Shown in pieces: positions 15,034-29,718 of a stretch of 64,000 bases of DNA. The notes beneath the pieces were generated by a model that was not told where the DNA came from, made no database searches, and saw only the letters and a program-made list of their open reading frames with translations. Every line of letters starts with the position of its first letter. Position 1 is the stretch's first letter. Source of the stretch: Minisyncoccota bacterium (GTDB lineage: Bacteria > Patescibacteriota > Minisyncoccia > Phycocordibacterales > UBA9973); assembly GCA_039915165.1 (NCBI GenBank), contig JBDSNU010000017.1, positions 2,041 through 66,040 of the forward strand, in the 5' to 3' direction. The position numbers were made by a program, and so were the translations under genes.

Positions 15034-15177
15034 TATTTTGTGTGTACGCCCTGTCGCTCTTCGAGCTATGAGGTGGGCCCACCGCGAAGCATGAGGTCTT
15101 CGAATGCGAAGTGGTGACCCCACTGCGTGGCTTTCAGAACTTTTAAAGCAAAGTGATTATATAAAAAGTAGTATTAA
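15034..15177 (+). repeat. Cassette-boundary repeat, copy A
   Basis: TTTATTTTGTGTGTACGCC...GTGGTGACCCCACTGCGTGGCTTTCAGAACT...GTGATTATATAAAAAGTAGTATTA. Contains an internal duplication of a CATGAGGT...GCGAAG unit. Sits between convergent terminators. Confidence 0.7.
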
Positions 15178-15252
15178 TTCTCTGAGGATATTGATGAAAT
15201 AAAAAAGAGCATCACGTTAATTCGTAATGCTCTTTACTGTTTTTGAAATCCC

Positions 15253-15717
15253 TTATACAAGCTCTGTGCCGTTCTGTATCGCGAAGCGGAAGCCTCGTGA
15301 TTTAACGTAGCCTTCGAGTATGTCTACCATAGATTGACTGATACCGCGGAACTTTGTCAGCTCGGTTGCAGGCACGGAAAGCATGTCAGAAAGATACACC
15401 CAACCGCTTGCCCTTACTGCCAGACCAATGCGCGTAACACTGTTCTTGTTACCAACGGTATGGTCATGGAAGTCAATCATGAAGTCGCGCAGAGGTATCC
15501 CTTTGGCGTTCTCCATCATTTCCTGACGTTCGGAAATCTCCCTCTTCGTTAGCTTCCTCGCAAATGCAAGGTTTACGAAGATTTTATCAGGCAGGTTCGT
15601 GTTGATGGTAAAGTTCCTGTCTCCCGTGATTTTCATTGCTCCCTTTGCAAGGAGCTTAACAAGGTCTTCTTTGCCAATCTCCAGAGTGGCAGAGATGTCG
15701 TTTTTAGTTACTTTCAT
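15253..15717 (-). CDS. Hypothetical protein with C-terminal RNAP alpha-CTD-like domain
   Basis: C-terminus LAVRASGWVYLSDMLSVPATELTKFRGISQSMVDILEGYVKSRGF resembles the alpha-CTD HhH (weaker than its two neighbours). Own hairpin terminator at about 15200-15235. Confidence 0.45.
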   Translation of the reverse strand: MKVTKNDISATLEIGKEDLVKLLAKGAMKITGDRNFTINTNLPDKIFVNLAFARKLTKREISERQEMMENAKGIPLRDFMIDFHDHTVGNKNSVTRIGLAVRASGWVYLSDMLSVPATELTKFRGISQSMVDILEGYVKSRGFRFAIQNGTELV

Positions 15718-15775
15718 CAGTATAGGTTTTTAATGTTTTACATTTTTTATTTGTCCTAACCCTAGCACAAAACAC

Positions 15776-15804
15776 TTGACATGTCAACGTATTGTGGTAA
15801 TGTG
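15776..15804 (+). promoter_or_regulatory. Promoter with palindromic -35 (TTGACATGTCAA)-16-TAATGT
   Basis: Perfect 12-bp palindrome overlapping -35. Near-identical 28-nt copy at 17188-17215. The listed ORF start 15781 is the ATG inside the palindrome. Confidence 0.45.
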
Positions 15805-15906
15805 AAGGAAACACTAAAACCCAATAACGATGATAGACATACCAAATCCGCCCAAACTCGTAAGCGAGGGCCATCTCTCTCCAGAAGGAGCGGAAACACT
15901 CTTAAA

Positions 15907-16479
15907 ATGGAAGAGGCCTTTGACAAGCTCGGCTACGCCGCTGATATAGAGGAGAGCAACTCTGGCGCTGTGCTTCTAAAAAACGGTGACCTGTTATGGT
16001 TCGATTCCAATGCCGCGCCAATTGACGCTGGCGACTACGCACCGTACATCCACGGTCGTCTGACAAGTGACATGAAAGGTAGTATCTGCATTTACGATCC
16101 CGAGCACGGTTCGGAAAGGTCGTTTAAGAAATGGATAACCATGATCGAGGAAGCCGGCTCTCCTGTTAAGGAAGAAGAAACGTATGGCACGTGGGAGGAG
16201 ATATACAATATCGCCGCCAAGTACGCAGACTTCAGGAACAGCATGATTCCGCCTATCGACAACATTGAGGCCAAGGAAAAGTTCCTCGATACCAGCCTCT
16301 ACGATCTGGAGGTAAGCACACGGGTGTTTACCAGCCTTGCTGCGCAGAATATCTTGACCCCGCGCGACCTTTTAGGCTACACGGCTTCAGAACTTTTGAA
16401 ATTTAATAATTTTGGCAAGAAGACCCTTCCTGAGATTGTAGAGATTCTGAAAAGGTATGATCTTCAGCTAAAGGATTGA
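15907..16479 (+). CDS. Hypothetical protein with C-terminal RNAP alpha-CTD-like domain
   Basis: C-terminus DLEVSTRVFTSLAAQNILTPRDLLGYTASELLKFNNFGKKTLPEIVEILKRYDLQL is a strong match to alpha-CTD (ELLK..N.GKK.L.EI). Start moved from 15781 (in promoter) to ATG 15907 after GGAG. GC-rich (about 50%). Confidence 0.55.
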   Translation: MEEAFDKLGYAADIEESNSGAVLLKNGDLLWFDSNAAPIDAGDYAPYIHGRLTSDMKGSICIYDPEHGSERSFKKWITMIEEAGSPVKEEETYGTWEEIYNIAAKYADFRNSMIPPIDNIEAKEKFLDTSLYDLEVSTRVFTSLAAQNILTPRDLLGYTASELLKFNNFGKKTLPEIVEILKRYDLQLKD

Positions 16480-16523
16480 TTTATTCAAACCGCTTAAGCC
16501 CTCTCAGAAATGAGGGAGCTTTT

Positions 16524-16634
16524 TTTATTTGTGCGTGCACCGCATAGCTCGAGGTCTTCGAGAGCGACGTGGTGACCCCACTGCGTGGCTTTCAGAACTT
16601 TGTAGGAATGGTGATTATATAAAAAGTAGTATTA
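16524..16634 (+). repeat. Cassette-boundary repeat, copy B
   Basis: TTTATTTGTGCGTGCACC...CGAGGTCTTCGAGAGCGACGTGGTGACCCCACTGCGTGGCTTTCAGAACT...GTGATTATATAAAAAGTAGTATTA. Confidence 0.7.
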
Positions 16635-16707
16635 CTGTATTGGAAGTGTTAGTAAAATAAAAAAGCTTCACATCTTAATGTGAAGCTTGAAGAATTTGAT
16701 TCATAAC

Positions 16708-17127
16708 TCAGTGCGTCGGGATGACTGTTTCTTTTGTGGTGCTAATTTCCCACCTGAGCTTAAGCGCCCAGCCCTGAGCGTATGAGTCATAAAGACCCTG
16801 CATCTGCTCAAGGGACTTACATTCCATGCGCTTGTCGCCAAGGCCCTGGTCGTATATCCCGATAACCTTATCGTCTTTGCCTAGTACAGGCATAGACGTG
16901 GGTCGGCCATACAGCTCAAGCGGCCTTGAGCCCATCGCTGTGACATTGATGCCTGCGGAGCCCTTGAACCTAATAGATGCTTCATCTGCTATATTTGAAG
17001 CAATAATGGCTTCGTACCAAAAATCAGGATAGCCATCAAATGCATCTTTAACTGTGCGAATGTTTGCTTCCCATTCCTCGGCGGAAGCGCTACCTCTCAT
17101 TAGATCAATAACTTCTTGTCTTGTCAT
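16708..17127 (-). CDS. Hypothetical protein (139 aa)
   Basis: ORF with hairpin terminator (AAGCTTCACAT-CTTAA-TGTGAAGCTT) downstream. No domain recognised. Confidence 0.45.
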   Translation of the reverse strand: MTRQEVIDLMRGSASAEEWEANIRTVKDAFDGYPDFWYEAIIASNIADEASIRFKGSAGINVTAMGSRPLELYGRPTSMPVLGKDDKVIGIYDQGLGDKRMECKSLEQMQGLYDSYAQGWALKLRWEISTTKETVIPTH

Positions 17128-17187
17128 TGCAAATTTATTTAGAGTGAATTAAAAGTACTTTACTGGTTTTATAATAACAGAATGTCC

Positions 17188-17215
17188 TTGACATGTCAAT
17201 GTATTGTGGTAATGT
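17188..17215 (+). promoter_or_regulatory. Second copy of palindromic-operator promoter TTGACATGTCAA-16-TAATGT
   Basis: CCTTGACATGTCAATGTATTGTGGTAATGT, differing by one base from the 15776 copy. Confidence 0.45.
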
Positions 17216-17234
17216 AAAATAAAGTTTTAATTCC

Positions 17235-17870
17235 TTGCGGATGCAGGGTGGCTCACTTGAGCAACGGAGCATGTTCCCAGCTTCAACCTTGGGAATGTTA
17301 TTTCAAAACAATTTTCGGATGGAAATGTTAACTATCAACGACGGTCCCTCAAGGGAGGAGCTGTTCGACTCAATTCGCCGCAGCATTGATGTATGGTTTG
17401 AATTTGCACCTGTGCGTAATGGCCAAGCGCAGGTATTCTCGGTCAAGCGAGTTGTGCTCAATTATGACCAAAGCAACCATTTCTGGCACGTCATTTTCAA
17501 TGTCGGATTCAAGGGAGAGACCCTGCACGGCAAACAGTATCAGGCTTACTATTCAACAGGCAGTCGCAAGGGCTTTACCGTCGAAAAGGAGGTAAGCTTT
17601 GAACTTGTTAAAGGCGAGACTCATCATTATCCGCTCACATCGGGCGAACTGTATGCAATGCTCAAGTATTCAAAGTTATGTCCGACCTTGCACTGGAACA
17701 TGCTACACGCTCGACTTGATAAAGCCATTCCAAACTACCCGCTGACCGAAGACGTGATGAGGAGGCAGAAAAAGCTTCCGCTACTGCTGTCGAAGATAAG
17801 GAAATCCAAGAAACTGGACGCGGTGGAAAAGCACCTTCCCGAAATGATGCAACTGCTTTGCATGCCTTAA
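17235..17870 (+). CDS. Hypothetical protein (start uncertain; listed TTG)
   Basis: 211-aa ORF downstream of the operator-promoter. No domain recognised. Terminator 17884-17918. Confidence 0.45.
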   Translation: MRMQGGSLEQRSMFPASTLGMLFQNNFRMEMLTINDGPSREELFDSIRRSIDVWFEFAPVRNGQAQVFSVKRVVLNYDQSNHFWHVIFNVGFKGETLHGKQYQAYYSTGSRKGFTVEKEVSFELVKGETHHYPLTSGELYAMLKYSKLCPTLHWNMLHARLDKAIPNYPLTEDVMRRQKKLPLLLSKIRKSKKLDAVEKHLPEMMQLLCMP

Positions 17871-17910
17871 TTGCATGCTGCGCCCTGAAACCTAAAACGT
17901 TTCGGGGCTT

Positions 17911-17991
17911 TTTTATTTGCATAAGTTCTGAATACGCAATGTAGTATGTAAAAATATCTTTACATACTAGCGTTTAAAATTTGTGACCCCA
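17911..17991 (+). repeat. Cassette-boundary repeat, copy C (left-arm type 2, truncated after GTGACCCCA)
   Basis: TTTTATTTGCATAAGTTCTGAATACGCAATGTAGTATGTAAAAATATCTTTACATACTAGCGTTTAAAATTTGTGACCCCA, then unrelated sequence. Left arm shared with copy E. Confidence 0.6.
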
Positions 17992-18120
17992 AGACTTGGA
18001 TTTCCGAACTGGTCCAAGACTACTCATTGATCAAGGCGAGCATTTTTGAAATGAAAGAGTTGGATTTCTCTATCAAATAAAAAAGGCGGACATAAAGGTC
18101 CGCCTCTCAATTTACAAATT

Positions 18121-18672
18121 TTAAATTCTTTCCCTCATCCAATCAAATAGTGCCCTGCGGCTTTTGATAACTTCTGTGAGTGACGTAGGTTCAGGGTAAG
18201 GGTCAATGAACGGAGCAGCATCCTTTGTGTGAGGCTTCAGCAGTACAATGCCCGTGAGCGATCCCGCTATCACTGCAGCCATACCAATCACAACGATGAG
18301 GCTCGCGTAAGCGAAAGTGAACGCAATGGGCCCGAAGAACGCATAGTATACGATTGCCATTATCAGGCTAAATCCCAGTCCTGGCCCGATACCGACCCAC
18401 ATATCTCCCATGGTGTCCATAAAATCGTCAAAGAGGTCATCGGATGCATCGTAAGGCTTGTCTTTCTTGTTAACTACAAAGTATGACCCCAATCCGCCAA
18501 GTGCATAGACTGCCACGAGGGTAATTTTTGCAAAAAGGGCGAAATTTGAGGAGTCGTGCTCTAAGCCCCAACCCATCCGGTAAATAAGTACCCCTGCAAG
18601 AACGAATACTGCGAGTTTTGCGATCGCTACCACTGCTTTTTTCAGGAAGCTAAAGTTGAATGTTGTTTTCAT
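18121..18672 (-). CDS. Polytopic membrane protein, hypothetical
   Basis: Four or five predicted TM helices (VVAIAKLAVFVLAGVLIY, ITLVAVYALGGLGSYFVV, etc.). Confidence 0.45.
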   Translation of the reverse strand: MKTTFNFSFLKKAVVAIAKLAVFVLAGVLIYRMGWGLEHDSSNFALFAKITLVAVYALGGLGSYFVVNKKDKPYDASDDLFDDFMDTMGDMWVGIGPGLGFSLIMAIVYYAFFGPIAFTFAYASLIVVIGMAAVIAGSLTGIVLLKPHTKDAAPFIDPYPEPTSLTEVIKSRRALFDWMRERI

Positions 18673-18684
18673 TTTTTTTGTTTT

Positions 18685-19251
18685 TTAAAGAATGTTGTTT
18701 TCAATACCATACACTTTCCTAAGTGCAGTCCGAGCGTCCTCGCCCAGGCGGTCTGCCACGATAAACCAAAACGGTATGCGGCTTTCCCATTGCTCTTCTC
18801 GCGATACGCGCTGGTCAACCTCTAGGGTGTCCAGCAGCATCATCCATTGCAGCTCAACGAACTGCTTGGGCGTGACAGGAAGATTTGTCAGAAGCTCCCT
18901 GTCTAATAAAAAATAGGGTGTGTTTTCCAACACGCTTCGGTCAAAGGACTGCTGCGACATGCGGCAATAGGCATATACTAAGGCTTCTGCCTCAGCGCCA
19001 ATCTTTTCCCGTACTTCGCCACGACGCTCAAGTGAAATTGAGAAGCCGTTGAAGTTTTCAGTGCCGTAAATTGAATGGAAGAGCCCAGCCACTATCGTTG
19101 AGAATGGGCGGTTATACCTTTCCAGATATTTTGCCAAGCCTTTCAGGTGAGGGAGAAACTTTCCGTTAGTGTGCTCGACGTCTGTGACGCCAAGCGTAAG
19201 CAGGTAGTCCGATAACGGACCGTTCAGAAGCGTTTTTTCTTGTGTTGTCAT
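18685..19251 (-). CDS. Hypothetical protein
   Basis: Start moved from the listed TTG at 19278 to the ATG at 19251 (MTTQEKT...). No confident domain. Confidence 0.4.
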   Translation of the reverse strand: MTTQEKTLLNGPLSDYLLTLGVTDVEHTNGKFLPHLKGLAKYLERYNRPFSTIVAGLFHSIYGTENFNGFSISLERRGEVREKIGAEAEALVYAYCRMSQQSFDRSVLENTPYFLLDRELLTNLPVTPKQFVELQWMMLLDTLEVDQRVSREEQWESRIPFWFIVADRLGEDARTALRKVYGIENNIL

Positions 19252-19297
19252 GAGGTTACATTTTTTAACATAATGCAATATATGTTAAAAAATGTCA

Positions 19298-19367
19298 ATG
19301 TTTTGTGACCCCACTGCGTGGCTTTCAGAACTCGTTAAGAACGGTGATTGCATAAAAAGCAGTATTA
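19298..19367 (+). repeat. Cassette-boundary repeat, copy D (right arm only, fused to a promoter fragment)
   Basis: ATGTCAATGTTTTGTGACCCCACTGCGTGGCTTTCAGAACTCGTTAAGAACGGTGATTGCATAAAAAGCAGTATTA. The preceding ATGTCAATGT is a half-copy of the operator-promoter. Confidence 0.6.
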
Positions 19368-19473
19368 TAGAGTTGAGAAACATCAAGGTGGTGTGAAGCT
19401 ATTGAACCTATACGCGTTACTTGACATTTTTCATATAGATGATATTGTAATTTCAAACTTAAAACAAATAAAT

Positions 19474-20037
19474 ATGAATTGGTACTCAATCTTTTACTGG
19501 TTGACCGTAGCGGACAGCGTAAAAAAATTCTTCGATACTACAAGCAATATCTTTACTTGGTTTGCAGTTCTATCATTCCTTGTAGTAGTTGCTACGACAA
19601 TCGGCAAGTCTTATCAGATTTCCGAAAATAGCATTAAAACTCCAGAGGAAGAAGCAACGGACGCTGACGTGAGAAGTTGGGATTTCCTTAAAAGGATATC
19701 TAGCAAATTCTTCTGGTGGATGTTGCCCCTTGCCCTTGTTACATGGCTTGGTTATGTAATGACTCCTACTAAAAAGGACTGTCTGCTGATTGTTGCCGGT
19801 GGTGCTGTTGGAAACTTTATGACCACTGACACTTCCGCAAGGAAACTGCCGTCTGATGTAACCAAGTTTCTGCACTTGAGCTTAAAAAATGAAATTGCGG
19901 GACTCAGCGACACGGCGAAGAAAGAACTCGGCATAACAACTCCGAAAGATGAGTTCTTAAAGAAGGCCGCTAAAATGTCCAAAGAGCAATTGCTGAAATA
20001 CTTACAAGCAGACACAACAGTTTTAAAGGATAACTAA
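19474..20037 (+). CDS. Membrane protein, hypothetical
   Basis: Two TM helices. Start moved to the ATG at 19474 because the listed upstream start lies inside repeat D. Confidence 0.45.
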   Translation: MNWYSIFYWLTVADSVKKFFDTTSNIFTWFAVLSFLVVVATTIGKSYQISENSIKTPEEEATDADVRSWDFLKRISSKFFWWMLPLALVTWLGYVMTPTKKDCLLIVAGGAVGNFMTTDTSARKLPSDVTKFLHLSLKNEIAGLSDTAKKELGITTPKDEFLKKAAKMSKEQLLKYLQADTTVLKDN

Positions 20038-20085
20038 CTCCTTATTATTACTATCCTAAACCGCACTTTACGAAAGGGCGGTTTT

Positions 20086-20218
20086 TTATTTGCAAAAATT
20101 CTGAAGACGCATTTGGGTATATAAAAATATCTTTACAGGATAGCGTTTAAAATCTGTGACCCCACTGCGTGGCTTTCAGAACTTATGAGGAGCAGTGATT
20201 ATATAAAAAGTAGTATTA
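20086..20218 (+). repeat. Cassette-boundary repeat, copy E (full length, carries both arms)
   Basis: TTTTTTATTTGCAAAAATTCTGAAGACGCA...TAAAAATATCTTTACAGGATAGCGTTTAAAATCTGTGACCCCACTGCGTGGCTTTCAGAACT...GTGATTATATAAAAAGTAGTATTA. Confidence 0.7.
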
Positions 20219-20246
20219 TTGAACTAGTACAGCTTGTGAAATAATT

Positions 20247-20275
20247 TTGACAAAAATCTATTTTTGAAATCTAAT
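20247..20275 (+). promoter_or_regulatory. Promoter TTGACA-17-TCTAAT for umuDC
   Basis: Canonical -35 with a plausible -10, 18 nt upstream of the SOS box. Confidence 0.4.
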
Positions 20276-20292
20276 ACAGCTTCTATTTACAA

Positions 20293-20308
20293 GTGAACGT
20301 TTGTTCAC
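20293..20308 (+). promoter_or_regulatory. SOS (LexA/DinR-type) box GTGAAC-N4-GTTCAC
   Basis: Perfect inverted repeat GTGAACgtttGTTCAC matching the GAAC-N4-GTTC Cheo-box consensus, placed between promoter and umuD. Confidence 0.5.
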
Positions 20309-20750
20309 TAAACTAACCTCTGTGAAAGTATCTATTTTAACGACCTTACCTCATTCCCACCATAAAGTTATCCCTATTGTATTAGCCAAGGTACAAGCGG
20401 GTTTTCCTTCACCTGCCGATGATTATATTGAATCTGCATTGAATATTAACGACCTTTTTCAAGTGGATGAATCAAGTACCTTCTTTGTTCGTGTTGAAGG
20501 AAGTTCAATGATAAATGCAGGAATCATGAATGGAGACATATTGTGTGTCCGTAGAGATTTAGAGCCAAAAGAAGGCAAGATTGTCATTGCTATTATCGAT
20601 AGCGAATTCACCGTTAAAAGATTTATGAAAAAAGGCAAGAGAGTAATATTCGAAGCAGCTAATGATGACTACCCATCAATTGAGCCCCAGGACGGTCAGA
20701 GCGTCGAGATATGGGGTGTTGTAACAGGGTTTGCCCGAACGTTTAAATAA
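20301..20750 (+). CDS. umuD: UmuD-like S24 peptidase (translesion synthesis accessory subunit); start uncertain
   Basis: QAGFPSPADDYIE, catalytic GSSM serine and FTVKRF lysine in UmuD/LexA-C-terminal spacing. No N-terminal HTH. The listed TTG start lies inside the SOS box. Confidence 0.7.
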   Translation: MFTKLTSVKVSILTTLPHSHHKVIPIVLAKVQAGFPSPADDYIESALNINDLFQVDESSTFFVRVEGSSMINAGIMNGDILCVRRDLEPKEGKIVIAIIDSEFTVKRFMKKGKRVIFEAANDDYPSIEPQDGQSVEIWGVVTGFARTFK

Positions 20751-20751
20751 T

Positions 20752-22098
20752 ATGTACAAGAAGCTCTACGCCCTCATAGACTGCTCCTCATTCTATTGCT
20801 CTTGTGAAAGGGCTTTTCGTGCTGACTTAAAAGGAAAGGCAATTTGCGTCCTTTCAAACAACGATGGCTGTATTATTTCTTTAACACCCGATACTAAAGC
20901 ACTAGGGTTTAAAATGGGCACACCGTACTATCAAATTAAAGATGATCTCGCCCAAAAAGGGGTTGCGGTCTTTTCATCTAACTATTGTCTCTACGCTGAT
21001 ATGAGCAAGCGTATTGTGAAGATAATACGATCGTTTAGTGATTTTGTTGAGCAATACTCAATTGATGAATCGTTTGTACAGTTTGAAGCAAATACAAATA
21101 ATATAGAACAAGAAAGAATACGGTTACATGCTCTGGCTGAAGAGATACATTTTACTATCCTAAAGAAAACGGGAGTGCCAGTAAGAGTTTCAATTGCTGA
21201 AACAAAAACATTGGCTAAGGTTGGTAGTGAGTATACAAAGTGCCTTATTAAGCAAGGTATTGTCCCAGCAGTGTGCTTTTGGGAACACCCAGACAAAGAT
21301 GGCTATATGAAAACACTTCCCGTAAATGATGTATGGGGCATAGGACGACAATGGAGTAAAAAGTTAGAAATGTCAGGAATTAAAACAGCAAAAGATTTAT
21401 CAATGGCTAATCCTGACTTACTGAAAAAGAATTACTCTATTGTTATGGAGCGCACAGCAAGAGAGCTTTCTGGATTCTCTTGCATATTGTTTGAACTAGT
21501 TGCTCCTGAACGTAAAAGCCTGGTACGAAGTCGCATGTTTTCTCATAAGATAACTGATGCCAAATACCTTAAACAGGCTATTTCGTTCCACCTAGCTCGA
21601 GCCAGTGAGAAACTACGGAGTGATAAACTTATGGCTACTGAACTATCAATATTTATGTCCACTGGTAGACACACCGAAATAACTAAATATAGTTATGCAC
21701 ATCAGACATTACTTCGTCCAACGAATGACATAATAATTCTGGCAGAAGTCGCAGACAAACTATTTAAAGAATGTTATGTGAAAAATGACAAATTTGGTAA
21801 TGAATATAAGTATTCAAAAGCAGGAGTATCACTTAGTGGATTTTCAAGTATTGATAAACAGAGTGAACCACTTTTTGATATTGGTATTACAGAAAGACCC
21901 GCGTTAATGAAAATACTTGATGGGCTTAATAGAAAGTTTGGAAAGCATACCGTAGTTCTCGCTTCTATGGGGGTCCCAAAAAAACTACAGAAAATAGAAG
22001 CAGCTAAAGACGATGCTATTGAATGGGGTATGAAGAGAGGGTTAATGAGTAAGCGGTTTACAACAGTTTGGGAAGAAATTTTACAAGTTAAAATATAA
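20752..22098 (+). CDS. umuC: UmuC-like Y-family DNA polymerase
   Basis: MYKKLYALIDCSSFYCSCERAFRADLKGKAICVLSNNDGCIISLTPDTKALGFKMGTP matches the UmuC N-terminus. The ATG at 20752 is 2 nt after the umuD stop. Confidence 0.8.
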   Translation: MYKKLYALIDCSSFYCSCERAFRADLKGKAICVLSNNDGCIISLTPDTKALGFKMGTPYYQIKDDLAQKGVAVFSSNYCLYADMSKRIVKIIRSFSDFVEQYSIDESFVQFEANTNNIEQERIRLHALAEEIHFTILKKTGVPVRVSIAETKTLAKVGSEYTKCLIKQGIVPAVCFWEHPDKDGYMKTLPVNDVWGIGRQWSKKLEMSGIKTAKDLSMANPDLLKKNYSIVMERTARELSGFSCILFELVAPERKSLVRSRMFSHKITDAKYLKQAISFHLARASEKLRSDKLMATELSIFMSTGRHTEITKYSYAHQTLLRPTNDIIILAEVADKLFKECYVKNDKFGNEYKYSKAGVSLSGFSSIDKQSEPLFDIGITERPALMKILDGLNRKFGKHTVVLASMGVPKKLQKIEAAKDDAIEWGMKRGLMSKRFTTVWEEILQVKI

Positions 22099-22900: not shown

Positions 22901-22915
22901 TTTATTTTAAATTAA

Positions 22916-23137: not shown

Positions 23138-23438
23138 GGATATTGAAGGGATAATGTTTATATTTGGTGATTGATGACCCCTATAATGGGATCAGTGGAC
23201 GCAAAAATCCCACCACAAGGGTGAGAGCTTTCGCCCTCCAATACTCGTTTCCAAGTACGGCCTCTTAAGCACTCCCGTATGGCGGGGTTTTTACTTAAGA
23301 GGACTTTTGCCATGCCGTTGATTGCTCAAGGGGTTAGGCCATATCTATTGATTTGTACCCCAAAACTATACATTGTAGAGATTGTATTTACAATGGCACA
23401 TAGGTATATAATGTTCACAACGTTCACAACACTCACGC

Positions 23439-24977: not shown

Positions 24978-25160
24978 GCCGCTTTATTTTCAGAAGAAGA
25001 CTTTGATGACAACATTCACAGGGACAAACTAGTATAAAAGTGCGAAAAAACGATCTGAAATAAACCCTTATTTTAAGCCATTTTGTGGCTCTTTTTTTTA
25101 TTTTCCATATATAGAGCATACCTGAACGTTTTTCAGGCTTTAGTAACAAATAATAATAAA

Positions 25161-25427
25161 ATGAGAACCACCACACACTTACCCAATGACGAATACGAAG
25201 AGCTTTTCGACATTAACCTCGTTGCTGCTTGCGTACTCGACGACATACCAATCGAAGCCTATAACAGAGATCCTAAAAATGCACCGCGTGTAGGTTTTTT
25301 ACTTAGAAAAAGCAATAAATTGAAAAACCTTATAAACCTCTACCTTTCAGGATTGCTGACTGTGGAGCCAAAACAGTTTGCTGCAGAAATTAGAAACCTG
25401 AAAGCCCGAACTAAAATTCCTTATTAA
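25161..25427 (+). CDS. Small hypothetical protein (88 aa)
   Basis: ATG at 25161 (MRTTTHLPNDEYEELFDIN...). The listed start at 25083 extends upstream without support. Confidence 0.35.
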   Translation: MRTTTHLPNDEYEELFDINLVAACVLDDIPIEAYNRDPKNAPRVGFLLRKSNKLKNLINLYLSGLLTVEPKQFAAEIRNLKARTKIPY

Positions 25428-25447
25428 ATAACAAACACTTAAATGAT

Positions 25448-26812
25448 ATGAAAAATGAACAAAAAGAAATTCTTAAAACAACAGTAGTTACGCCTGACAC
25501 CCTATATGAGATGGTTTATGACGACATTGGTGAAACCACATCCTTTATAAAGCAATCCAAAGACGGCGATTTCGAGGCGGGAGTAGAAAAGGTTGAGATA
25601 AACGGTATGACATACACTCCTCTGCCGCCTGACTATATTCTTTTGAAGAAAAAGGTCATCTTATTCCCATCAAAAGTTTCTCCATATGTAAGCGAGGAGC
25701 AGCTTCTTGAAGAGGTTAGGTGCTTTATACACAAATACTTAGACATCTCCGAAGTGTTTGAGCAAATTGCTACTTATTACGTCTTGTTCTCATGGATGTA
25801 TGACCGTTTCAACGAAGTGCCTTACCTAAGAGCACTCGGCGACTTTGGCAGCGGCAAATCACGTTTTCTTCAGACTATTGGAATCATTTGTTATAAGCCC
25901 GTATTCACAGGCGGAGCAACTACTCCGAGTCCGATATTTCGAATTATCGACGAGGTTAAGGGGACGCTTATCATAGACGAAGCCGACTTCAAGTTCTCGG
26001 ATATGAGCTCTGAAATCGTGAAGATTCTGAACACTGGATACCAGAAGGGCATGCCAGTGCTTCGCTCCGAGGGCAAGGGCACTTTCGAGGTAAAGGCATA
26101 CGATGTCTTCTGTCCCAAGATCATTGCTACCCGCGAGACATTCACCGACAAGGCCCTTGAGAGCCGTTTTCTGATAGAGGAAATGGGCACGAGCAAGCTT
26201 CGCAACGACATACCCCGAACGCTCGATGAGAGCTTCTACAGCGACGCTGAGGGCATCAGGAACAAGCTCCTCATGTGGAGACTGGATAACTATTTCGAAC
26301 CAATCGAGAGGTGCAACGACATCATCGAGGGTATCCACCCACGTCTCAACCAGATCGTCATGCCCCTGCTCTCAATCATAAAAAGCGAGGCAATCCGCGA
26401 GCGACTCAAGACCTTTATCATCCAGTACAACACCGACCTGACTGCCGACCGAGGACTGTCATGGGAAAGCGACATTGTCTTTGCCATCCTGAAGCTCGAG
26501 CACGAGACAGGCAGCATGGAGATAACGGTGAAGCAGATAACGGAGGAGGTAAACAAGGAAAGCGACATTGGCGAAGACACGCTTCAGCCCCGAAAGGTGG
26601 GATGGTATCTGCGCGCACGCCTGCAGCTCAAGCCGTACAAGACACGCAAGGGATTCGTGCTCTCATTCAAGGAAAACCGAAAACGATTGGACATGTGGAA
26701 AGAGCGGTTTGCCATCTCTGACGCGGACATTCGCGGCGAACATGTGAACGATGTGAAGGTCGTAGAGAGCAGTGAATTTGTCATGCCAACAGCGCAGGAG
26801 CTGGGGTTTTAG
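25448..26812 (+). CDS. P-loop NTPase of the phage/plasmid primase-helicase (SF3/D5/VirE-like) type, putative replication protein
   Basis: Walker A GDFGSGKS, Walker B LIIDEADF, ATRE sensor-like segment. About 50% GC block. Confidence 0.5.
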   Translation: MKNEQKEILKTTVVTPDTLYEMVYDDIGETTSFIKQSKDGDFEAGVEKVEINGMTYTPLPPDYILLKKKVILFPSKVSPYVSEEQLLEEVRCFIHKYLDISEVFEQIATYYVLFSWMYDRFNEVPYLRALGDFGSGKSRFLQTIGIICYKPVFTGGATTPSPIFRIIDEVKGTLIIDEADFKFSDMSSEIVKILNTGYQKGMPVLRSEGKGTFEVKAYDVFCPKIIATRETFTDKALESRFLIEEMGTSKLRNDIPRTLDESFYSDAEGIRNKLLMWRLDNYFEPIERCNDIIEGIHPRLNQIVMPLLSIIKSEAIRERLKTFIIQYNTDLTADRGLSWESDIVFAILKLEHETGSMEITVKQITEEVNKESDIGEDTLQPRKVGWYLRARLQLKPYKTRKGFVLSFKENRKRLDMWKERFAISDADIRGEHVNDVKVVESSEFVMPTAQELGF

Positions 26813-26815
26813 GCT

Positions 26816-27424
26816 ATGAAAAAGAAAAAGGAACTGACCAGATACGATCCCGAAAAAACAAAGAAAATGGTGCTGCAACATACGCGCCTTACGGGGGACA
26901 AGGATGAATTGCTGGAGCTGCTCGGGCAGAAACTTTTGCCTATCCTTGCCGACGGCACGCCAGAGGAAAAAGCGACTGCCATGAAGGAGATACAGGACAA
27001 GGCGATGGAGCTGATGCGGATTTTCGAGGGCGTAACGCATTTAGGCCTCATGGAAACCTTCACGGAAAAGTACCGCATGTTCGCCCGAGAAATGGCCAAG
27101 ACCATGATCGTGGAGCTCAACTGCAGCAACGAGGCCGAGCGTGCGCTCGCAGAGCTGGCGGTAAACGCCTACGTCAGGGTTATCGACAACTCGAGACGGC
27201 TCAACAACGAGTACGAATCTCGCGAAATAACCCCGAACAGGAACGTATATATTGCAAACCTGAGCAAGCAGATCGACAGAGCGAACCGCCAGTACCTGTC
27301 GGCCATCATGACGCTCAGGCAGCTGAAATCACCTACGGTCGAAATGACCATCAAAGCCAACACTGCGTTTGTGTCCCACAACCAGCAGGTAAACGTCCAG
27401 AAAGATGAAAGCATTACCCCTTAA
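26816..27424 (+). CDS. Hypothetical protein (202 aa), GC-rich block
   Basis: ORF contiguous with and the same composition as the NTPase gene. No domain recognised. Confidence 0.45.
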   Translation: MKKKKELTRYDPEKTKKMVLQHTRLTGDKDELLELLGQKLLPILADGTPEEKATAMKEIQDKAMELMRIFEGVTHLGLMETFTEKYRMFAREMAKTMIVELNCSNEAERALAELAVNAYVRVIDNSRRLNNEYESREITPNRNVYIANLSKQIDRANRQYLSAIMTLRQLKSPTVEMTIKANTAFVSHNQQVNVQKDESITP

Positions 27425-27734
27425 TGATTTCGGAAAAAAAGTCTTAGTTGAGGACTGCCAGAAAGTCCTGATCAGCGACTTCATACGCAGTGCCAAGAGC
27501 AAGCTCAAGCAAGCGCTGCTGGCCGCAGAGCTGCAGTCTCAGGACCTGGATGTCAGCCTCACCACGTCGCCAGTGCACCGCAACGGCCTTCGATACTGGT
27601 TCGCATGCCCGCTTTGCCAAAAGCGAGTCGGGGTACTTTACGTGCATCCTATCAACCATAACCTGGGCTGCAGAGAATGCCTGAACCTGAAATACAAGAA
27701 GTGTCGATTTAAAGGGATGGTCGAGATTTTCTAA
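27405..27734 (+). CDS. Zinc-ribbon hypothetical protein
   Basis: CPLCQKR...GCRECLNLKYKKC four-Cys arrangement. Confidence 0.4.
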   Translation: MKALPLNDFGKKVLVEDCQKVLISDFIRSAKSKLKQALLAAELQSQDLDVSLTTSPVHRNGLRYWFACPLCQKRVGVLYVHPINHNLGCRECLNLKYKKCRFKGMVEIF

Positions 27735-27889
27735 CGAAAATGGTATTATGAGTGAGCTACACAACAGACCAATAAACGACGATTTTTTTGTACTCGAAGA
27801 GGGGCAAGGTGGTTCGTTGTGTAGCAACAAAGAGTCGTTTCCTTGTCCCTCTTTGGGTGTAAGGAACATCCTTACAAAAGATACTATCG

Positions 27890-29707
27890 ATGCTCTTGAA
27901 GGGCTTGGGGAGGTATTGCGGGGCATACGGAAAAGAATGTTGTCCGAAGGATATGAAATCCATAATGGAGCCGTTTCTAAAAAGCATGAGCAAGCAAATT
28001 ATTAAAACTGAAAAAGAACTCATAGCAGAGATAGTGAACGGCAAATACCGCGAGTGCTATTTTATATACAACCGCAAGAGCACTGACGATGATGACAATC
28101 AGAAAAATTCCATTTCATATCAGAAAGCAGAGAATGCTCGATTTGCATTTAAAGAAAAGCTACCGATGGCACACCTTACAATAAAGGGTTTTTGTACCGA
28201 CGGGATTGTCTCGGAAAAGCATTCAGGATTTAAGGAGGATAATGATTTTAATATCACAGCTGATGGTCTAGTTCAGTATCGTATTGATAGACCAAAGTTT
28301 CAGCAAATGCTCCAGTTCGCAAGCCAGGGGCTTATAAGAGGTGTCGTTTGTCTTTGCTGGGACCGTATTAGTAGAAACAAAGGAGATGATACCCTTGTAA
28401 GAAAGCTTATGCGCAAAGGTGTAGATTTTCGATTCGTGTATGCAAACTATGATAAGACCAGTTCTGGTGCATTGCATATGGATATTGATGGAATGTTTTC
28501 CCAGCATCACTCTAGAGTTACTAGCGAAAAAGTTTCCATCACTACAAGGCACTCCAGAGAAAAAGGTATCTGTACCTACCGTGCACCCATCGGCTATTTG
28601 AACGAGGGTAACATGGATCACAAGCCCTTTGACCCTGAGCGTGCTCCCGTAATTACCCAGATGTATGAATTTTACGCTACTGGTGAGTGGAGCTTGTCTG
28701 ACCTGGCACGATACGCTGCAGAGCAAGGCTTCGTTACTGTTCCTATGAGACGAAGGAGAACGCAGGAGGAAATACTCGGTGAAGAGGATGAATTCGACGA
28801 GATTCAAAAGACATCTAGGCCAGTAAATGAGAATCATATCAGCCGAATACTCACCAATCCTTTTTATACAGGAAAGATTTTAGACTCAGGAGGCAAGCAC
28901 ATTGAAAGCAACAGCCACGAACCCCTTGTCAGCGAAGAGCTTTTTAATAAGGTGCAGGGTGTGCTCAAAAAGAAAAAGACTAGCGTGCATTACACAGAGA
29001 AATTAGATCTCCCGCTTCGGGGCGTTGTACGTTGTGAACTTTGTGAACGTGTATATACACCATACGAGAGAAAAGGAATTCTGTATTTCAACTCCCGCTG
29101 TATTAAGGGCTGTACTAACGAGCTCAAAAACTTTAACATTTCCTTCATTACTGAAAAGATCGCTGGGCTTATTGGCAACCTATACTTTACCGATGATGAA
29201 ATGGCTCAAATGGACGCTCGTATGGGTACAGACGTAGCGTTGCTTGAAGAAAAGCGCCTAAAGCAGCTAGACCAGGTCGAGAGAAGAAAAAAGAAAGTGC
29301 GTGAAGACCTTGCATATATTCGCTCGAACAAGCTCTCACTGCTTAAGACAGGCGTCTATACTGCCGAAGCGTTAGTTGAAGAAGAGTCAAATTTAAACGA
29401 GGAGCTCTTGATTCTTCAGAATCAAGAACAGTCTTCTGACATCGCTATGCACGAAACAATGAAGGACGTACAGAAACTTTCAGAACTAGTGAAGGACGTT
29501 ATGCCATATTACAATTTTGCCAATGCACATGAAAAAGAGAAAATAATCAGAGTTATCTTTTCAGAACTGACTATTTCACAGAATACGTTTAAATATAAAT
29601 GCAAAAGTGGCTTTCAGTGCTTTGAAAATCGCTTAAATGCAATGGGTGACCCCACGGGGAATCGAACCCCGATTAACGGCTTGAAAAGCCGGCGTCCTAA
29701 CCGTTAG
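27890..29707 (+). CDS. Large serine recombinase (resolvase/invertase-type catalytic domain plus recombinase and zinc-ribbon domains); start uncertain
   Basis: FIYNRKSTDDDDNQ...SISYQ catalytic-serine motif, DRISRN, recombinase domain, Zn ribbon VRCELCERVYTPYERKGILYFNSRCIKGC, coiled coil. The ORF reads through the antisense tRNA-Glu gene. Confidence 0.7.
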   Translation: MLLKGLGRYCGAYGKECCPKDMKSIMEPFLKSMSKQIIKTEKELIAEIVNGKYRECYFIYNRKSTDDDDNQKNSISYQKAENARFAFKEKLPMAHLTIKGFCTDGIVSEKHSGFKEDNDFNITADGLVQYRIDRPKFQQMLQFASQGLIRGVVCLCWDRISRNKGDDTLVRKLMRKGVDFRFVYANYDKTSSGALHMDIDGMFSQHHSRVTSEKVSITTRHSREKGICTYRAPIGYLNEGNMDHKPFDPERAPVITQMYEFYATGEWSLSDLARYAAEQGFVTVPMRRRRTQEEILGEEDEFDEIQKTSRPVNENHISRILTNPFYTGKILDSGGKHIESNSHEPLVSEELFNKVQGVLKKKKTSVHYTEKLDLPLRGVVRCELCERVYTPYERKGILYFNSRCIKGCTNELKNFNISFITEKIAGLIGNLYFTDDEMAQMDARMGTDVALLEEKRLKQLDQVERRKKKVREDLAYIRSNKLSLLKTGVYTAEALVEEESNLNEELLILQNQEQSSDIAMHETMKDVQKLSELVKDVMPYYNFANAHEKEKIIRVIFSELTISQNTFKYKCKSGFQCFENRLNAMGDPTGNRTPINGLKSRRPNR

Positions 29708-29718
29708 ACGATGGGGCC
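29647..29718 (-). tRNA. tRNA-Glu (anticodon TTC)
   Basis: Reverse complement folds as GGCCCCA-TC-GTCT-AACGGTTA-GGAC-G-CCGGC-TTTTCAA-GCCGT-TAAT-CGGGG-TTCGATT-CCCCG-TGGGGTC-A. Followed by CCCA, not an exact CCA. Confidence 0.75.

What the first reader, a model, noticed from the sequence alone, without database searches (positions are those of the whole stretch)
15114..29718. Repeat core GGTGACCCCAC equals the 3-prime end of tRNA-Glu, which abuts a large serine recombinase: a tRNA-linked mosaic element
The minus-strand tRNA-Glu has its 3-prime acceptor strand, discriminator and two following nt at plus-strand 29645-29655 (GGTGACCCCAC). Repeats A and B carry exactly this 11-mer in the same orientation: GTGGTGACCCCAC at 15111-15123 and 16569-16581. 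Copies D and E carry the 10-mer GTGACCCCAC, and copy C stops at GTGACCCCA. The segment lies on the 3-prime side of the tRNA, which is the usual side for tRNA-targeting elements. The serine recombinase gene (27890-29707) is the tRNA-proximal gene. The segment also carries an SF3-type replication NTPase and umuDC. Composition is mosaic: about 50-55% GC at 15.8-16.5, 22.3-22.9 and 25.4-27.7 kb, against roughly 38-40% elsewhere. Direct repeats of a tRNA 3-prime segment delimiting successive modules are what serial site-specific insertions at one attB would leave. I propose a serine-recombinase-driven cassette-accreting or tandem-island element. Serine-integrase-based cassette arrays are not an established system type, to my knowledge.
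Basis: partly seen in the sequence, partly recalled or inferred. Interest (0 to 1): 0.75.

Follow-up and report, generated by a model that had tools for sequence, protein, structure and literature searches.

The report
Recombinase-tail repeats beside tRNA-Glu
A mobile element of a tiny uncultured bacterium (Paceibacterota) sits at the end of a tRNA-Glu gene, its serine recombinase has its attachment site inside the end of its own gene, and the five 'repeats' are spare copies of that gene end left beside small cargo modules.

Summary
GGTGACCCCAC occurs at 15113, 16571 and 29645, with one-mismatch copies at 19304 and 20155 and a diverged copy at 17982.

Only about 10 nt of each 90-135-nt repeat matches the tRNA. 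The rest encodes, in frame, the missing C-terminal ~30 residues of the large serine recombinase (27986-29707). That gene now reads through the shared word into antisense tRNA-Glu. Among its 120 best homologues, 26 keep this tail and 74 end in antisense-tRNA peptide. One circular 9.3-kb contig carries an intact gene. So attP lies inside the recombinase gene, and integration at the tRNA discriminator (crossover within GTGA) swaps the enzyme's tail.

Repeat E is the far junction of a 9.5-kb element carrying umuDC. Repeats A-D head four recombinase-less modules of 0.85-1.5 kb. Similar arrays occur in other genomes, with and without a recombinase, and inside the circular form.

A dedicated cassette-capture system is not shown, and SCC composite islands are a precedent.

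What is new: a tRNA-targeting serine integrase family, a bacterial att site inside its own gene, and modules with a conserved right-end arm.

The parts
29647..29718 (-). tRNA-Glu(UUC). It is the right (B') arm of the attachment site and remains intact.
   Evidence: Rfam tRNA hit of 62.2 bits at 29647-29718. ARAGORN places it at 29643-29719.
29646..29649 (+). GTGA, the smallest block shared by paired junctions. It must contain the crossover dinucleotide. On the tRNA it corresponds to C74-A73-C72-U71.
   Evidence: Left and right junctions compared in L001, L004, L009, L027, L077 and the window.
27986..29707 (+). Large serine recombinase in its integrated form. Its last 19 residues (GNRTPINGLKSRRPNR and neighbours) are read from antisense tRNA. 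The ORF is open from 27890.
   Evidence: Pfam Resolvase and Recombinase domains. 100% identical to P0001, 573 aa. The model of a homologue matches solved serine integrases at E = 5e-15.
29616..29668 (+). Right junction (attR). It joins the recombinase-gene arm (TTTGAAAATCGC...), GTGA and the tRNA arm (CCCCACGGGGAATCGAAC).
   Evidence: Sequence. Alignment of 74 recombinase 3' ends.
20155..20244 (+). Repeat E: core plus tail ORF CDPTAWLSELMRSSDYIKSSIIELVQLVK*. It is the nearest far junction (attL) and marks the left end of the 9.5-kb recombinase-bearing element.
   Evidence: Single tails lie 5-11.5 kb upstream of the recombinase end in L001, L004, L005, L009, L014 and others.
20078..20163 (+). 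X arm: the conserved right end of module M4. It starts with AATTCTGAA, an inverted copy of TTCAGAACT with one mismatch.
   Evidence: nhmmer E = 1e-18. Inverted-word analysis.
19304..19396 (+). Repeat D: core plus tail ORF CDPTAWLSELVKNGDCIKSSIIELRNIKVV*. Its left flank, ATGTCAATGTTTTGTG, is a truncated copy of the M1/M2 promoter region.
   Evidence: families D1 and D12.
17982..18080 (+). Repeat C: a diverged core (TGTGACCCCAAGACTTGGATTTCCGAACT) plus tail ORF CDPKTWISELVQDYSLIKASIFEMKELDFSIK*.
   Evidence: The TGGATTTCCGAAC variant is also seen in L066 and L074.
17905..17990 (+). X arm: the conserved right end of module M2. It starts with AAGTTCTGAAT.
   Evidence: nhmmer E = 6e-18. The inverted word sits at -60.
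16531..16660 (+). Repeat B: left arm (GGTCTTCGAGAGCGACGT), core and tail ORF GDPTAWLSELCRNGDYIKSSITVLEVLVK*.
   Evidence: family D2, 79% identical to A over 135 nt.
15073..15202 (+). Repeat A: left arm (GGTCTTCGAATGCGAAGT), core and tail ORF GDPTAWLSELLKQSDYIKSSINSLRILMK*. It is the outermost recognisable junction.
15203..16530 (.). Module M1. It holds divergent ORFs 15253-15717 (-) and 15781-16479 (+, RNA_pol_A_CTD domain) around the palindromic promoter TTGACATGTCAA.
   Evidence: No recombinase or backbone remnant was found.
16661..17904 (.). Module M2. It holds divergent ORFs 16708-17127 (-) and 17235-17870 (+) with the same promoter block.
   Evidence: family D5, 89% identity over 37 nt.
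18081..19303 (.). Module M3. It holds ORFs 18121-18672 (-) and 18685-19278 (-, DUF6817). Its right half is missing.
19397..20077 (.). Module M4, a single gene at 19474-20037 (+) encoding a membrane protein.
20301..22098 (+). umuD (20301-20750) and umuC (20731-22098), cargo of the recombinase-bearing element.
   Evidence: Pfam Peptidase_S24, IMS, IMS_C and DUF4113. NCBIfam scores UmuD at 138 bits (cut-off 110) and UmuC at 343 bits (cut-off 431).
25448..26812 (+). Conserved backbone P-loop NTPase. Some relatives are fused to a Prim-Pol primase.
   Evidence: 62-80% identical over the 12 loci listed, of 21 with a hit. More than 4,600 homologues. Prim-Pol fusions in 2 of 19.
27405..27734 (+). Conserved small Cys-rich ORF next to the recombinase gene. 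It is a candidate accessory or directionality factor, which is inference only.
   Evidence: tblastn hits in 20 related loci. No family assignment.
29477..29568 (+). Two internal copies of the word YTTTCMGAACT (29477 and 29558), in the same frame and orientation as the tail copy.

Best explanation
**What it is.** Window 20155-29647 is a 9.5-kb integrative element of a Paceibacterota (Patescibacteria) bacterium. It is probably self-replicating. Its large serine recombinase inserted it at the very 3' end of tRNA-Glu(UUC).

**Where the attachment site lies.** The element's attachment site (attP) lies inside the last ~30 codons of the recombinase gene.
- The left arm is the coding sequence ...FENRLNAMG.
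- The crossover falls within GTGA, at tRNA positions 72-74.
- The right arm (P') is GACCCCACTGCGTGGCTTTCAGAACT, which encodes DPTAWLSEL.
- The tRNA arm carries the related word ATCGAAC (T arm) 5 bp closer to the crossover. This is the attB geometry known for serine integrases.

**What integration does.** Integration leaves the tRNA whole. It detaches the recombinase's two-helix C-terminal tail, which stays at the far junction, and gives the enzyme 19 residues read from antisense tRNA. Excision rejoins gene and tail.

**What the repeats are.**
- The five repeats are far junctions (attL type).
- E belongs to the resident element.
- A-D head four recombinase-less modules of one or two genes, accreted by earlier events.
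- M2 and M4 end in a conserved ~70-nt 'X arm'.

**How the modules move.** Because each junction keeps an intact P' arm and tail, the recombinase-bearing element can probably excise from any of them and carry the modules in between. It can also leave modules behind when it excises from the inner junction.

**Shown and inferred.**
- Shown: site anatomy, in-frame tails, both protein forms in nature, a circular form, and arrays elsewhere.
- Inferred: the catalytic events, the order of accretion, mobilisation in trans, and any functional difference between the two recombinase forms.
For: - **Frame.** The recombinase ORF reads GGT GAC CCC AC in frame into antisense tRNA. All five repeats continue that frame for 29-32 codons to a stop. 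Copy C differs in nucleotides but keeps the residues.
- **Both protein forms exist.** Of the 120 best homologues, 26 end ...DP(T/I)xWLSEL..I..SI..L...* and 74 end ...DPT(G/E)(N/S)RT...PNR*.
- **Related loci.** In 80 genome loci the recombinase end abuts a minus-strand tRNA (mostly Glu, also Ala, Val and Ser). A single orphan tail lies 5-11.5 kb upstream on the same strand.
- **Circular form.**
  - Contig L094 (9,440 nt) has a 141-nt terminal overlap, so it is circular, and it carries a full-length gene.
  - It also contains a second tail behind a one-gene module and an X arm.
  - L095 shows the same arrangement in an independent assembly.
- **Crossover.** Paired junctions share at least GTGA.
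- **5-bp shift.** GAAC ends 25 nt from GAC in the P' arm and 20 nt from GAC in the tRNA arm. This matches Rutherford et al. 2013.
- **Frozen codons.** Synonymous sites of W-L-S-E are fixed: CTT in 39 of 41 Leu codons against a 28% background, and GAA in 45 of 45.
- **Fold and domains.** The model matches SPbeta, LI, phiC31 and Bxb1 integrases. The tail is modelled as two helices at pLDDT 82-86.
- **Arrays elsewhere.** L027 has 4 tails. L091 has tails and X arms abutting tRNA-Glu with no recombinase.
- **X arms.**
  - They recur in the window (2 copies), L027 (2 copies) and L091 (2 copies), with an X-like arm in L094.
  - Among the orphan junctions scored, their inverted word appears only at internal junctions of arrays.
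- **Assembly.** Positions 16572-27127 are confirmed at 100% identity by two independent assemblies.
Against: - No reads or experiments show excision, and no empty site was found in a close relative.
- Canonical serine-integrase rules allow only attP x attB, or attL x attR with a directionality factor. They do not explain how a second element enters an occupied site, or how X-arm junctions are made.
- Whether X is a P-type or a B-type arm is unresolved. The position-weight-matrix test gave z of about 2.5 only.
- The frozen word YTTTCMGAACT also occurs twice more inside the gene. Codon freezing is therefore not specific to the half-site.
- Some relatives keep a full-length gene on megabase chromosomal contigs with no tRNA nearby, for example L043, L058 and L064. 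Integration into tRNA may therefore not be universal in the family.
- Module cargo has no relatives in other arrays.
- The A-B join rests on one assembly, because the k=31 assemblies break at B.
Confidence: 0.8

Rival explanations
1. **Fossil tandem array.** Complete recombinase-bearing elements integrated one after another at tRNA-Glu. The older ones then lost their backbone and recombinase by deletion. Repeats A-D are inert scars, and the modules are not mobilised.
For: - Decay intermediates exist elsewhere.
  - The tail at L045:2580 is preceded by a recombinase 3' fragment (PWM score 27.8).
  - L036 and L060 show weaker remnants.
  - L081 holds a 69-residue recombinase fragment.
- Repeat D abuts a truncated promoter.
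- Tandem arrays of integrative elements are common.
- Most of the related loci examined have a single junction.
Against: - No backbone or recombinase remnant lies in 15.1-20.2 kb.
- A, B, D and E keep a 28-nt identical core, and all five keep open tails.
- X arms are conserved between unrelated genomes while the cargo differs.
- A module with an X arm travels inside a circular element.
- An array without a recombinase ends X-tRNA in L091.
Confidence: 0.3
2. **Integron-like platform.** A dedicated serine-recombinase system captures single-gene cassettes through a cassette-borne site: the X arm, the core and the start of the tail, an 86-88-bp unit with terminal inverted repeats. It stacks the cassettes next to the tRNA.
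For: - There are seven X-arm modules of 0.55-1.4 kb in four independent loci.
- The inverted word AGTTCTGAA sits at -59 to -62 in 4 of 39 orphan junctions, against 0.014 expected per junction.
- Arrays occur with and without the recombinase.
Against: - There is no fixed platform, because the recombinase is itself on the mobile element.
- The modules carry their own promoters and terminators and lie in both orientations.
- M1 and M3 lack X arms.
- There is no convincing hairpin of the attC kind (z from -0.9 to -2.7).
- Arrays are a minority of the loci examined.
- The nearest M4 homologues sit at ordinary loci.
- The pairing of sites needed is not a canonical serine-integrase reaction.
Confidence: 0.2
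3. **Chance or assembly artefact.** The 11-mer identity is coincidental, or the array is a chimeric join of metagenomic contigs at a repeat.
For: Two k=31 assemblies end exactly at core B (16572), because A and B share a 33-nt exact repeat.
Against: - None of 100 shuffles reaches the observed count.
- Junctions C, D and E and the element are reproduced at 100% identity in two samples.
- The same architecture occurs in dozens of independent genomes.
Confidence: 0.03

Closest known systems
SCC / SCCmec composite islands of staphylococci (Ccr large serine recombinases)
   Same: - A large serine recombinase inserts elements at the 3' end of a conserved housekeeping gene.
- The short core is repeated at every junction.
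- Tandem islands include recombinase-less (Psi) elements, bounded by direct repeats and thought to be moved by a neighbour's enzyme (details of Psi-element mobilisation are from my own knowledge).
   Different: - The target here is a tRNA gene, not rlmH/orfX.
- The recombinase is not a Ccr: 48 bits against a CcrB cut-off of 900.
- The site lies inside the recombinase gene, so the repeated unit encodes the enzyme's tail.
- The modules are 0.6-1.5 kb rather than tens of kb.
Phage-type large serine integrases (LI/A118, SPbeta, phiC31, Bxb1)
   Same: - The domain order is catalytic domain, recombinase domain, then zinc ribbon with a long coiled coil.
- The fold matches at E = 5e-15.
- The outer word is 5 bp closer to the crossover on the host side than on the element side.
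   Different: - There is no significant sequence match to any solved chain.
- An extra C-terminal region of about 110 residues is present.
- attP is inside the gene.
- The target is a tRNA. This use was called unreported in 2020, when 14 of 297 predicted cases lacked experimental proof.
- Three frozen direct copies of an 11-nt word are present.
SSV-type 'suicidal' tyrosine integrases of archaeal viruses and plasmids
   Same: The att site lies within the integrase's own gene, the target is a tRNA gene, and integration changes the gene product.
   Different: - They are a different enzyme superfamily (tyrosine) in a different domain of life. The 2021 review states that such recombinases are found exclusively in archaea.
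- There the gene is split and inactivated.
- Here only the last ~30 residues are exchanged, and the ORF stays open.
Integration-dependent immunity of mycobacteriophages (attP inside the repressor gene)
   Same: Integration at a site in the 3' end of a phage gene yields a C-terminally altered protein. The integrated and free states therefore make different isoforms (from my own knowledge; not checked here).
   Different: - The gene affected there is the repressor, not the recombinase.
- The integrase there is a tyrosine enzyme.
- A functional consequence is proven there and unknown here.
Tandem arrays of integrative elements and CIMEs (cis-mobilisable elements beside ICEs)
   Same: There is accretion at one tRNA site, internal att sites, and integrase-less units flanked by att sites (CIMEs are from my own knowledge).
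   Different: Those use tyrosine integrases, whose core sites are regenerated on both sides. For serine integrases, re-use of hybrid sites is not expected.
Integrons
   Same: There are arrays of small, mostly single-gene units separated by a recurring recombination-site-like sequence with inverted ends.
   Different: - Integrons use a tyrosine recombinase IntI, attI with a Pc promoter, and folded single-stranded attC sites.
- Their cassettes lack promoters and share one orientation.
- None of these features is met here.

Membership tests
Large serine recombinase (serine integrase) superfamily | N-terminal resolvase-type catalytic domain with the serine nucleophile | tested here: met
   Pfam Resolvase hit at E = 1.2e-12. 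Y28-x-R30-K31-S32-T33 is invariant in 26 homologues. Assigning S32 as the nucleophile is inference.
Large serine recombinase (serine integrase) superfamily | Recombinase domain followed by a zinc ribbon with an inserted coiled coil | tested here: met
   Pfam Recombinase hit at E = 4.7e-13. Four Cys residues are invariant (C350, C353, C372, C376). The model has long helices at 403-482. Foldseek matches SPbeta, LI, phiC31 and Bxb1 at E from 5e-15 to 9e-7.
Large serine recombinase (serine integrase) superfamily | Short attP and attB sites with a 2-bp crossover, and the outer (ZD) motif 5 bp nearer the centre in attB | tested here: inconclusive
   The right arms fit: GAAC ends at +25 in P' and at +20 in the tRNA arm, and the shared block is GTGA. 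The left arms are only weakly symmetric. No biochemistry was done.
Large serine recombinase (serine integrase) superfamily | A separate recombination directionality factor for excision | not testable with these tools
   The conserved small ORF at 27405-27734 is a candidate only.
SCC elements (Ccr-mediated) | Recombinase of the CcrA, CcrB or CcrC families | tested here: not met
   NCBIfam CcrB score of 47.8 bits against a cut-off of 900.
SCC elements (Ccr-mediated) | Integration at the 3' end of rlmH (orfX) | tested here: not met
   The target here is tRNA-Glu.
SCC elements (Ccr-mediated) | Tandem composite islands, with recombinase-less members, delimited by repeats of the core | tested here: met
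   Five junctions and four recombinase-less modules. This is a resemblance in behaviour, not membership.
Integron | IntI tyrosine recombinase with attI and Pc | tested here: not met
   The only recombinase in the segment is a serine enzyme.
Integron | attC sites that fold as imperfect hairpins; promoterless cassettes in one orientation | tested here: not met
   Only a 9-11-nt terminal inverted repeat is present, with z from -0.9 to -2.7. The modules have promoters and terminators and lie on both strands.
Recombinases carrying the att site in their own gene (SSV type) | att site inside the integrase ORF, so that integration alters the gene | tested here: met
Recombinases carrying the att site in their own gene (SSV type) | Tyrosine recombinase of the SSV1 subfamily; the gene is split into two non-functional parts | tested here: not met
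   This is a serine recombinase, and only the last ~30 codons are exchanged.
   No family or PDB hit. The ATPase core of the model has pLDDT below 50. Walker A and B motifs are visible in the sequence. Prim-Pol fusions occur in 2 of 19 homologues.

The most novel reading that the evidence does not exclude
The family is a new kind of serine-recombinase mobility system with two unusual properties.

1. **A built-in state switch.** The att site lies in the enzyme's own gene. A free circle therefore makes a full-length enzyme with its two-helix tail, competent for integration. The integrated copy makes a tail-swapped enzyme with different directionality or stability. Three frozen copies of the word YTTTCMGAACT may act as extra protein-binding ('arm-type') sites.

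2. **Trafficking of small cassettes.** Recombinase-less single-gene cassettes, bounded by the tail on one side and the conserved X arm on the other, are picked up, carried on the circle and dropped next to tRNA genes. This would be a serine-recombinase analogue of integron cassette traffic in Patescibacteria and Bacteroidota.
Probability: 0.3. Interest if true: 0.85.

Novelty: new variant of a known kind. Interest (0 to 1): 0.65.

Why it matters
- **tRNA targeting.** Serine integrases were thought hardly ever to use tRNA genes. In 2020 such use was described as unreported. This family does so routinely: 74 of the 120 closest homologues are fused to antisense tRNA.
- **Site inside its own gene.** Recombinases with the att site in their own gene were stated to be exclusive to archaea and to tyrosine enzymes. 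This is a bacterial serine counterpart. It leaves the gene open but changes the protein's end, which makes a state-dependent control of directionality directly testable.
- **Abundance and use.** The family is abundant in Patescibacteria, which lack genetic tools. A small self-contained integration module with a conserved tRNA target could become such a tool, or a new orthogonal integrase.
- **Gene flow.** The modules with conserved X arms suggest a route by which ultra-small genomes gain and lose single genes.

Tried and rejected
- **attC-like hairpin.** X-core-tail units close only a 9-11-nt terminal stem, and z-scores are weak. Rejected.
- **X arm as a relic of the recombinase 3' end.** A position-weight matrix of 70 recombinase arms scores the window's X arms at only -9, at offset +2 (z about 2.5). 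True relics score 28 (L045) and 5.6 (L036). Unresolved.
- **A conserved 'F-type' left arm across loci.**
  - A and B resemble each other. L081 and L027-4 resemble each other.
  - The shared TCGA motifs sit at different distances from the crossover.
  - I did not keep this as one class.
- **Symmetry centre.** I first placed it at the first two bases of the Cys/Gly codon. The paired junctions exclude this.
- **Structure of the NTPase.** The core was modelled too poorly for a fold search.
- **Same cargo in cassettes elsewhere.** M4 homologues at 55-61% identity lie next to pilM, next to dnaK/HU, in a phage-like contig or on short contigs. None has a core or X arm.
- **Module proteins against related loci, PHROGs and PADLOC.** Nothing useful.
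- **Viral contigs.** No match to the core or to the general P' pattern.
- **Annotated plasmids and phages.** The best recombinase matches are at most 27% identical.
- **Circularity of other small contigs with full-length genes (L092, L096, L097).** No terminal overlap.
- **Strain variants of the array.** The only other assemblies are 100% identical and stop at core B.
- **Empty tRNA-Glu site in a close relative.** None is available. Related genomes are only 65-75% identical and rearranged.

Full report
**1. The observation**

ARAGORN finds tRNA-Glu(UUC) on the minus strand at 29643-29719. Rfam places it at 29647-29718, so its 3' end is the discriminator base at 29647.

GGTGACCCCAC is exact at 15113, 16571 and 29645. 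TGTGACCCCAC is at 19304 and 20155. None of 100 dinucleotide shuffles gives five hits. Copy C at 17982 reads TGTGACCCCAag.

The repeats are far longer than the shared word. A, B, D and E share a 28-nt identical core, GTGACCCCACTGCGTGGCTTTCAGAACT. The families extend over 89-135 nt.

Pfam confirms a large serine recombinase (Resolvase plus Recombinase) and UmuD/UmuC. GC is mosaic but milder than stated: 47.6%, 51.9% and 49.3% in the three named stretches.

**2. What the repeats encode**

The recombinase ORF reads ...FENRLNAM-GGT GAC CCC AC... in frame and continues through antisense tRNA to a stop at 29705-29707 (…GDPTGNRTPINGLKSRRPNR*).

In the same frame every repeat continues as an open tail of 29-32 codons:

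| Repeat | Tail |
|---|---|
| A | GDPTAWLSELLKQSDYIKSSINSLRILMK* |
| B | GDPTAWLSELCRNGDYIKSSITVLEVLVK* |
| C | CDPKTWISELVQDYSLIKASIFEMKELDFSIK* |
| D | CDPTAWLSELVKNGDCIKSSIIELRNIKVV* |
| E | CDPTAWLSELMRSSDYIKSSIIELVQLVK* |

. Copy C differs widely in nucleotides but keeps the residues, so these are coding sequences.

**3. Test with homologues**

I searched with the recombinase joined to tail E and listed the 120 best homologues. They are 60-100% identical, and where a source names them they are from Parcubacteria/Patescibacteria.
- 26 end with the tail (for example ...GDPITWLSELYKERVYIKSAIENL...).
- 74 end in ...DPT(G/E)(N/S)RT...PNR*, which is antisense tRNA.

A scan of one genome per species gave 80 loci. 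In most Patescibacteria loci the gene end overlaps a minus-strand tRNA: Glu-UUC or Glu-CUC, and sometimes Ala, Val or Ser. One orphan tail lies 5-11.5 kb upstream on the same strand.

Contig L094 (9,440 nt, k=141 assembly) has a 141-nt terminal overlap, so it is circular. It carries a full-length gene with its tail.

I conclude that the attachment site of these elements lies inside the 3' end of the recombinase gene. Integration exchanges the last ~30 residues, and the far junction stores the tail.

**4. Anatomy of the site**

Paired left and right junctions in L001, L004, L009, L027, L077 and the window share at least GTGA. The crossover dinucleotide therefore lies in 29646-29649, which is tRNA positions 71-74. 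The tRNA body stays chromosomal and intact.

I aligned 74 recombinase 3' ends.
- The element-side right arm reads GACCC.A....TGGCTTTC(A/C)GAAC.
- The tRNA arm reads GACCC(T/C)AC.G.GA.TCGAAC.
- The word GAAC ends at +25 in the first and at +20 in the second.

This 5-bp inward shift of the outer motif in attB is the rule proposed for serine integrases (Rutherford et al. 2013, PMC3783163).

Synonymous sites of W-L-S-E are frozen in 45 distinct tails.
- Leu is CTT in 39 of 41 codons, against a 28% background.
- Ser is never AGY, against a 43% background.
- Glu is GAA in 45 of 45, against a 68% background.

**5. The enzyme**

An AlphaFold model of the full-length homologue P0035 has mean pLDDT 77.9. 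It shows the catalytic domain, the recombinase domain, a zinc ribbon with four invariant Cys, a long coiled coil and a further C-terminal region. The tail forms two helices (556-564 and 567-580) at pLDDT 82-86.

Foldseek's best PDB matches are SPbeta, LI, phiC31 and Bxb1 integrases, with E down to 5e-15. No solved chain matches by sequence.

NCBIfam scores fall far below the XisF and CcrB cut-offs. Annotated phages and plasmids hold nothing above 27% identity.

The enzyme is a member of the large-serine-recombinase superfamily, but of an uncharacterised family.

**6. The resident element**

Only the NTPase ORF (25448-26812), the small ORFs after it and the recombinase are conserved across related loci. 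The umuDC cargo and the rest are not.

The NTPase has more than 4,600 homologues and no family assignment. Two of 19 homologues are fused to Prim-Pol plus PriCT_1, which suggests a replication module. 'SF3' remains unverified.

The identical NCBI protein is from a Candidatus Paceibacterota MAG.

**7. The array**

Between A and E lie four modules without any recombinase or backbone remnant.
- M1 and M2 each hold a divergent gene pair around a shared palindromic promoter block, TTGACATGTCAA (89% identity over 37 nt).
- M3 holds two minus-strand genes. It ends in a 16-nt piece of that same promoter block fused to core D. This looks like recombination at a pseudo-site or a microhomology deletion.
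- M4 holds one gene.

The left arms fall into classes.
- A and B are 79% alike over 135 nt, including the gene upstream (RNA_pol_A_CTD in both).
- C and E share a ~70-nt 'X arm'.

X arms recur in L027 (2 copies) and L091 (2 copies), and an X-like arm occurs in L094. All start with AGTTCTGAA, or a one-mismatch variant. This is the inverse of the tail's TTCAGAACT and lies about 60 nt left of the crossover. Four of 39 orphan junctions carry it at -59 to -62, against 0.014 expected per junction. None of the lone far junctions scored carries it.

X is therefore the right end of a class of small modules (0.55-1.4 kb), not a native tRNA trailer.

**8. Evidence on how modules travel**

The circular L094 carries the recombinase with tail 1, then a one-gene module, then an X-like arm with core and tail 2, then the rest of the element. 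L095 shows the same arrangement in an independent assembly. This is what excision from an outer junction would produce.

L091 shows the opposite state. Tails, cargo and X arms abut tRNA-Glu(CUC) as X-core-tRNA, with no recombinase. This is what excision from the inner junction would leave.

L027 has four tails upstream of a 5.5-kb element. L045, L036, L060 and L081 show decaying recombinase fragments at junctions, so plain tandem integration followed by decay also happens.

**9. What remains unexplained**

- Canonical serine-integrase rules do not account for insertion into an occupied site or for the birth of X-arm junctions.
- The arm type of X is unresolved, and it does not form a convincing hairpin.
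- The word YTTTCMGAACT occurs six times in the window against 0.24 expected. Two copies lie inside the recombinase gene, encoding KLSEL and IFSEL. Both are as frozen at synonymous sites as the tail copy.
- The three LSEL motifs lie in helix, strand and helix in the model. A DNA-level (or RNA-level) function therefore seems imposed on the ORF.
- Some relatives in Bacteroidota, Verrucomicrobia and Kordiimonas keep full-length genes on large chromosomal contigs.

**10. Reliability of the assembly**

Two independent assemblies from two runs are 100% identical to window 16572-27127 and 16572-25840. Both stop at 16572, where the 33-nt A/B repeat exceeds their k-mer. The A-B join rests on the source contig alone.

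**11. Comparison with known systems**

- The behaviour is closest to SCC composite islands. These use Ccr serine recombinases, direct repeats at orfX and ccr-less Psi elements. It also resembles tandem arrays of integrative elements. The enzyme, the target and the site-in-gene arrangement all differ.
- The site-in-own-gene arrangement parallels SSV-type archaeal tyrosine integrases, which a 2021 review calls exclusive to archaea.
- tRNA use by serine integrases was called unreported in 2020.
- My literature searches found no description of this family.

**12. Verdict**

This is a new variant of a known kind: a serine-integrase element with tandem accretion. Three features deserve experiments.
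- tRNA targeting.
- The attachment site inside the recombinase gene, with exchange of the enzyme's tail.
- Small recombinase-less modules with conserved X arms.

Noticed in passing
window 23223-23340 (-): Rfam LOOT RNA (RF03000) scores 72.4 bits against a gathering score of 46.4. It lies inside the recombinase-bearing element, between ORF 22916-23137 (-) and ORF 23439-24977 (+).
   Followed up: no
window 29477-29487 and 29558-29568, plus tails at 15131, 16589, 19322 and 20173: The 11-nt word YTTTCMGAACT is repeated three times in direct orientation and the same frame across the reconstituted recombinase 3' end (KLSEL, IFSEL, WLSEL). All three copies are frozen at synonymous sites in 58-70 diverged genes. 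The word resembles the antisense T arm.
   Followed up: partly
window 15775-15811 and 17187-17223; partial copy at 19292-19307: Modules M1 and M2 share a promoter block with 89% identity, containing the perfect palindrome TTGACATGTCAA. This may be a bidirectional -35 or an operator. A 16-nt piece of it abuts core D.
   Followed up: partly
window 14526-14984 and 15781-16479: Two small proteins consist mainly of an RNA-polymerase alpha C-terminal domain (Pfam E = 7e-12 and 8e-15). Each is followed by a terminator and a similar left arm. The stretch 13.0-15.1 kb has 35% GC and no homologues in related loci, so it may be older accreted DNA.
   Followed up: partly
L019 7180, L063 11647, and L029, L030, L042: In some family members the recombinase right arm is neither tail nor tRNA. 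Examples are GAGCCAATACTTCCTAGGGTGGAACAC, and peptide ends such as E(L/V)I..FARTYF. This suggests other integration targets.
   Followed up: no
L043, L058, L064, L069 (Verrucomicrobia, Chitinophagaceae, Kordiimonas): Full-length, tail-bearing recombinase genes with the same TGGCTTTC(A/C)GAAC word sit on contigs of 0.6-1.3 Mb. L043, L064 and L069 have no tRNA in the fetched flanks, and L058 has only a tRNA-Met about 6 kb away.
   Followed up: no
L094 304-2208: The circular element carries a 634-residue reverse transcriptase (RVT_1) as cargo, next to a DUF5659 protein. The window's ORF 25083-25427 also gives a weak DUF5659 hit.
   Followed up: no
L091 about 2150-2290: A decayed fragment reads like a small resolvase N-terminus (…PDRLSRNASAIGTVVDLID…). 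It lies inside the recombinase-less array (read by eye).
   Followed up: no
L081/L084, L087, L090: One identical P' arm and tail (…ELYSNRDYIKSSIQDLNVILATV*) is joined to three different left flanks in different metagenome contigs. This is expected for a recently active element inserted in different genomes.
   Followed up: partly
window 16572: Two public k=31 assemblies of the same strain end exactly here, because cores A and B share 33 identical bases. Such arrays will be systematically fragmented in short-k assemblies.
   Followed up: yes
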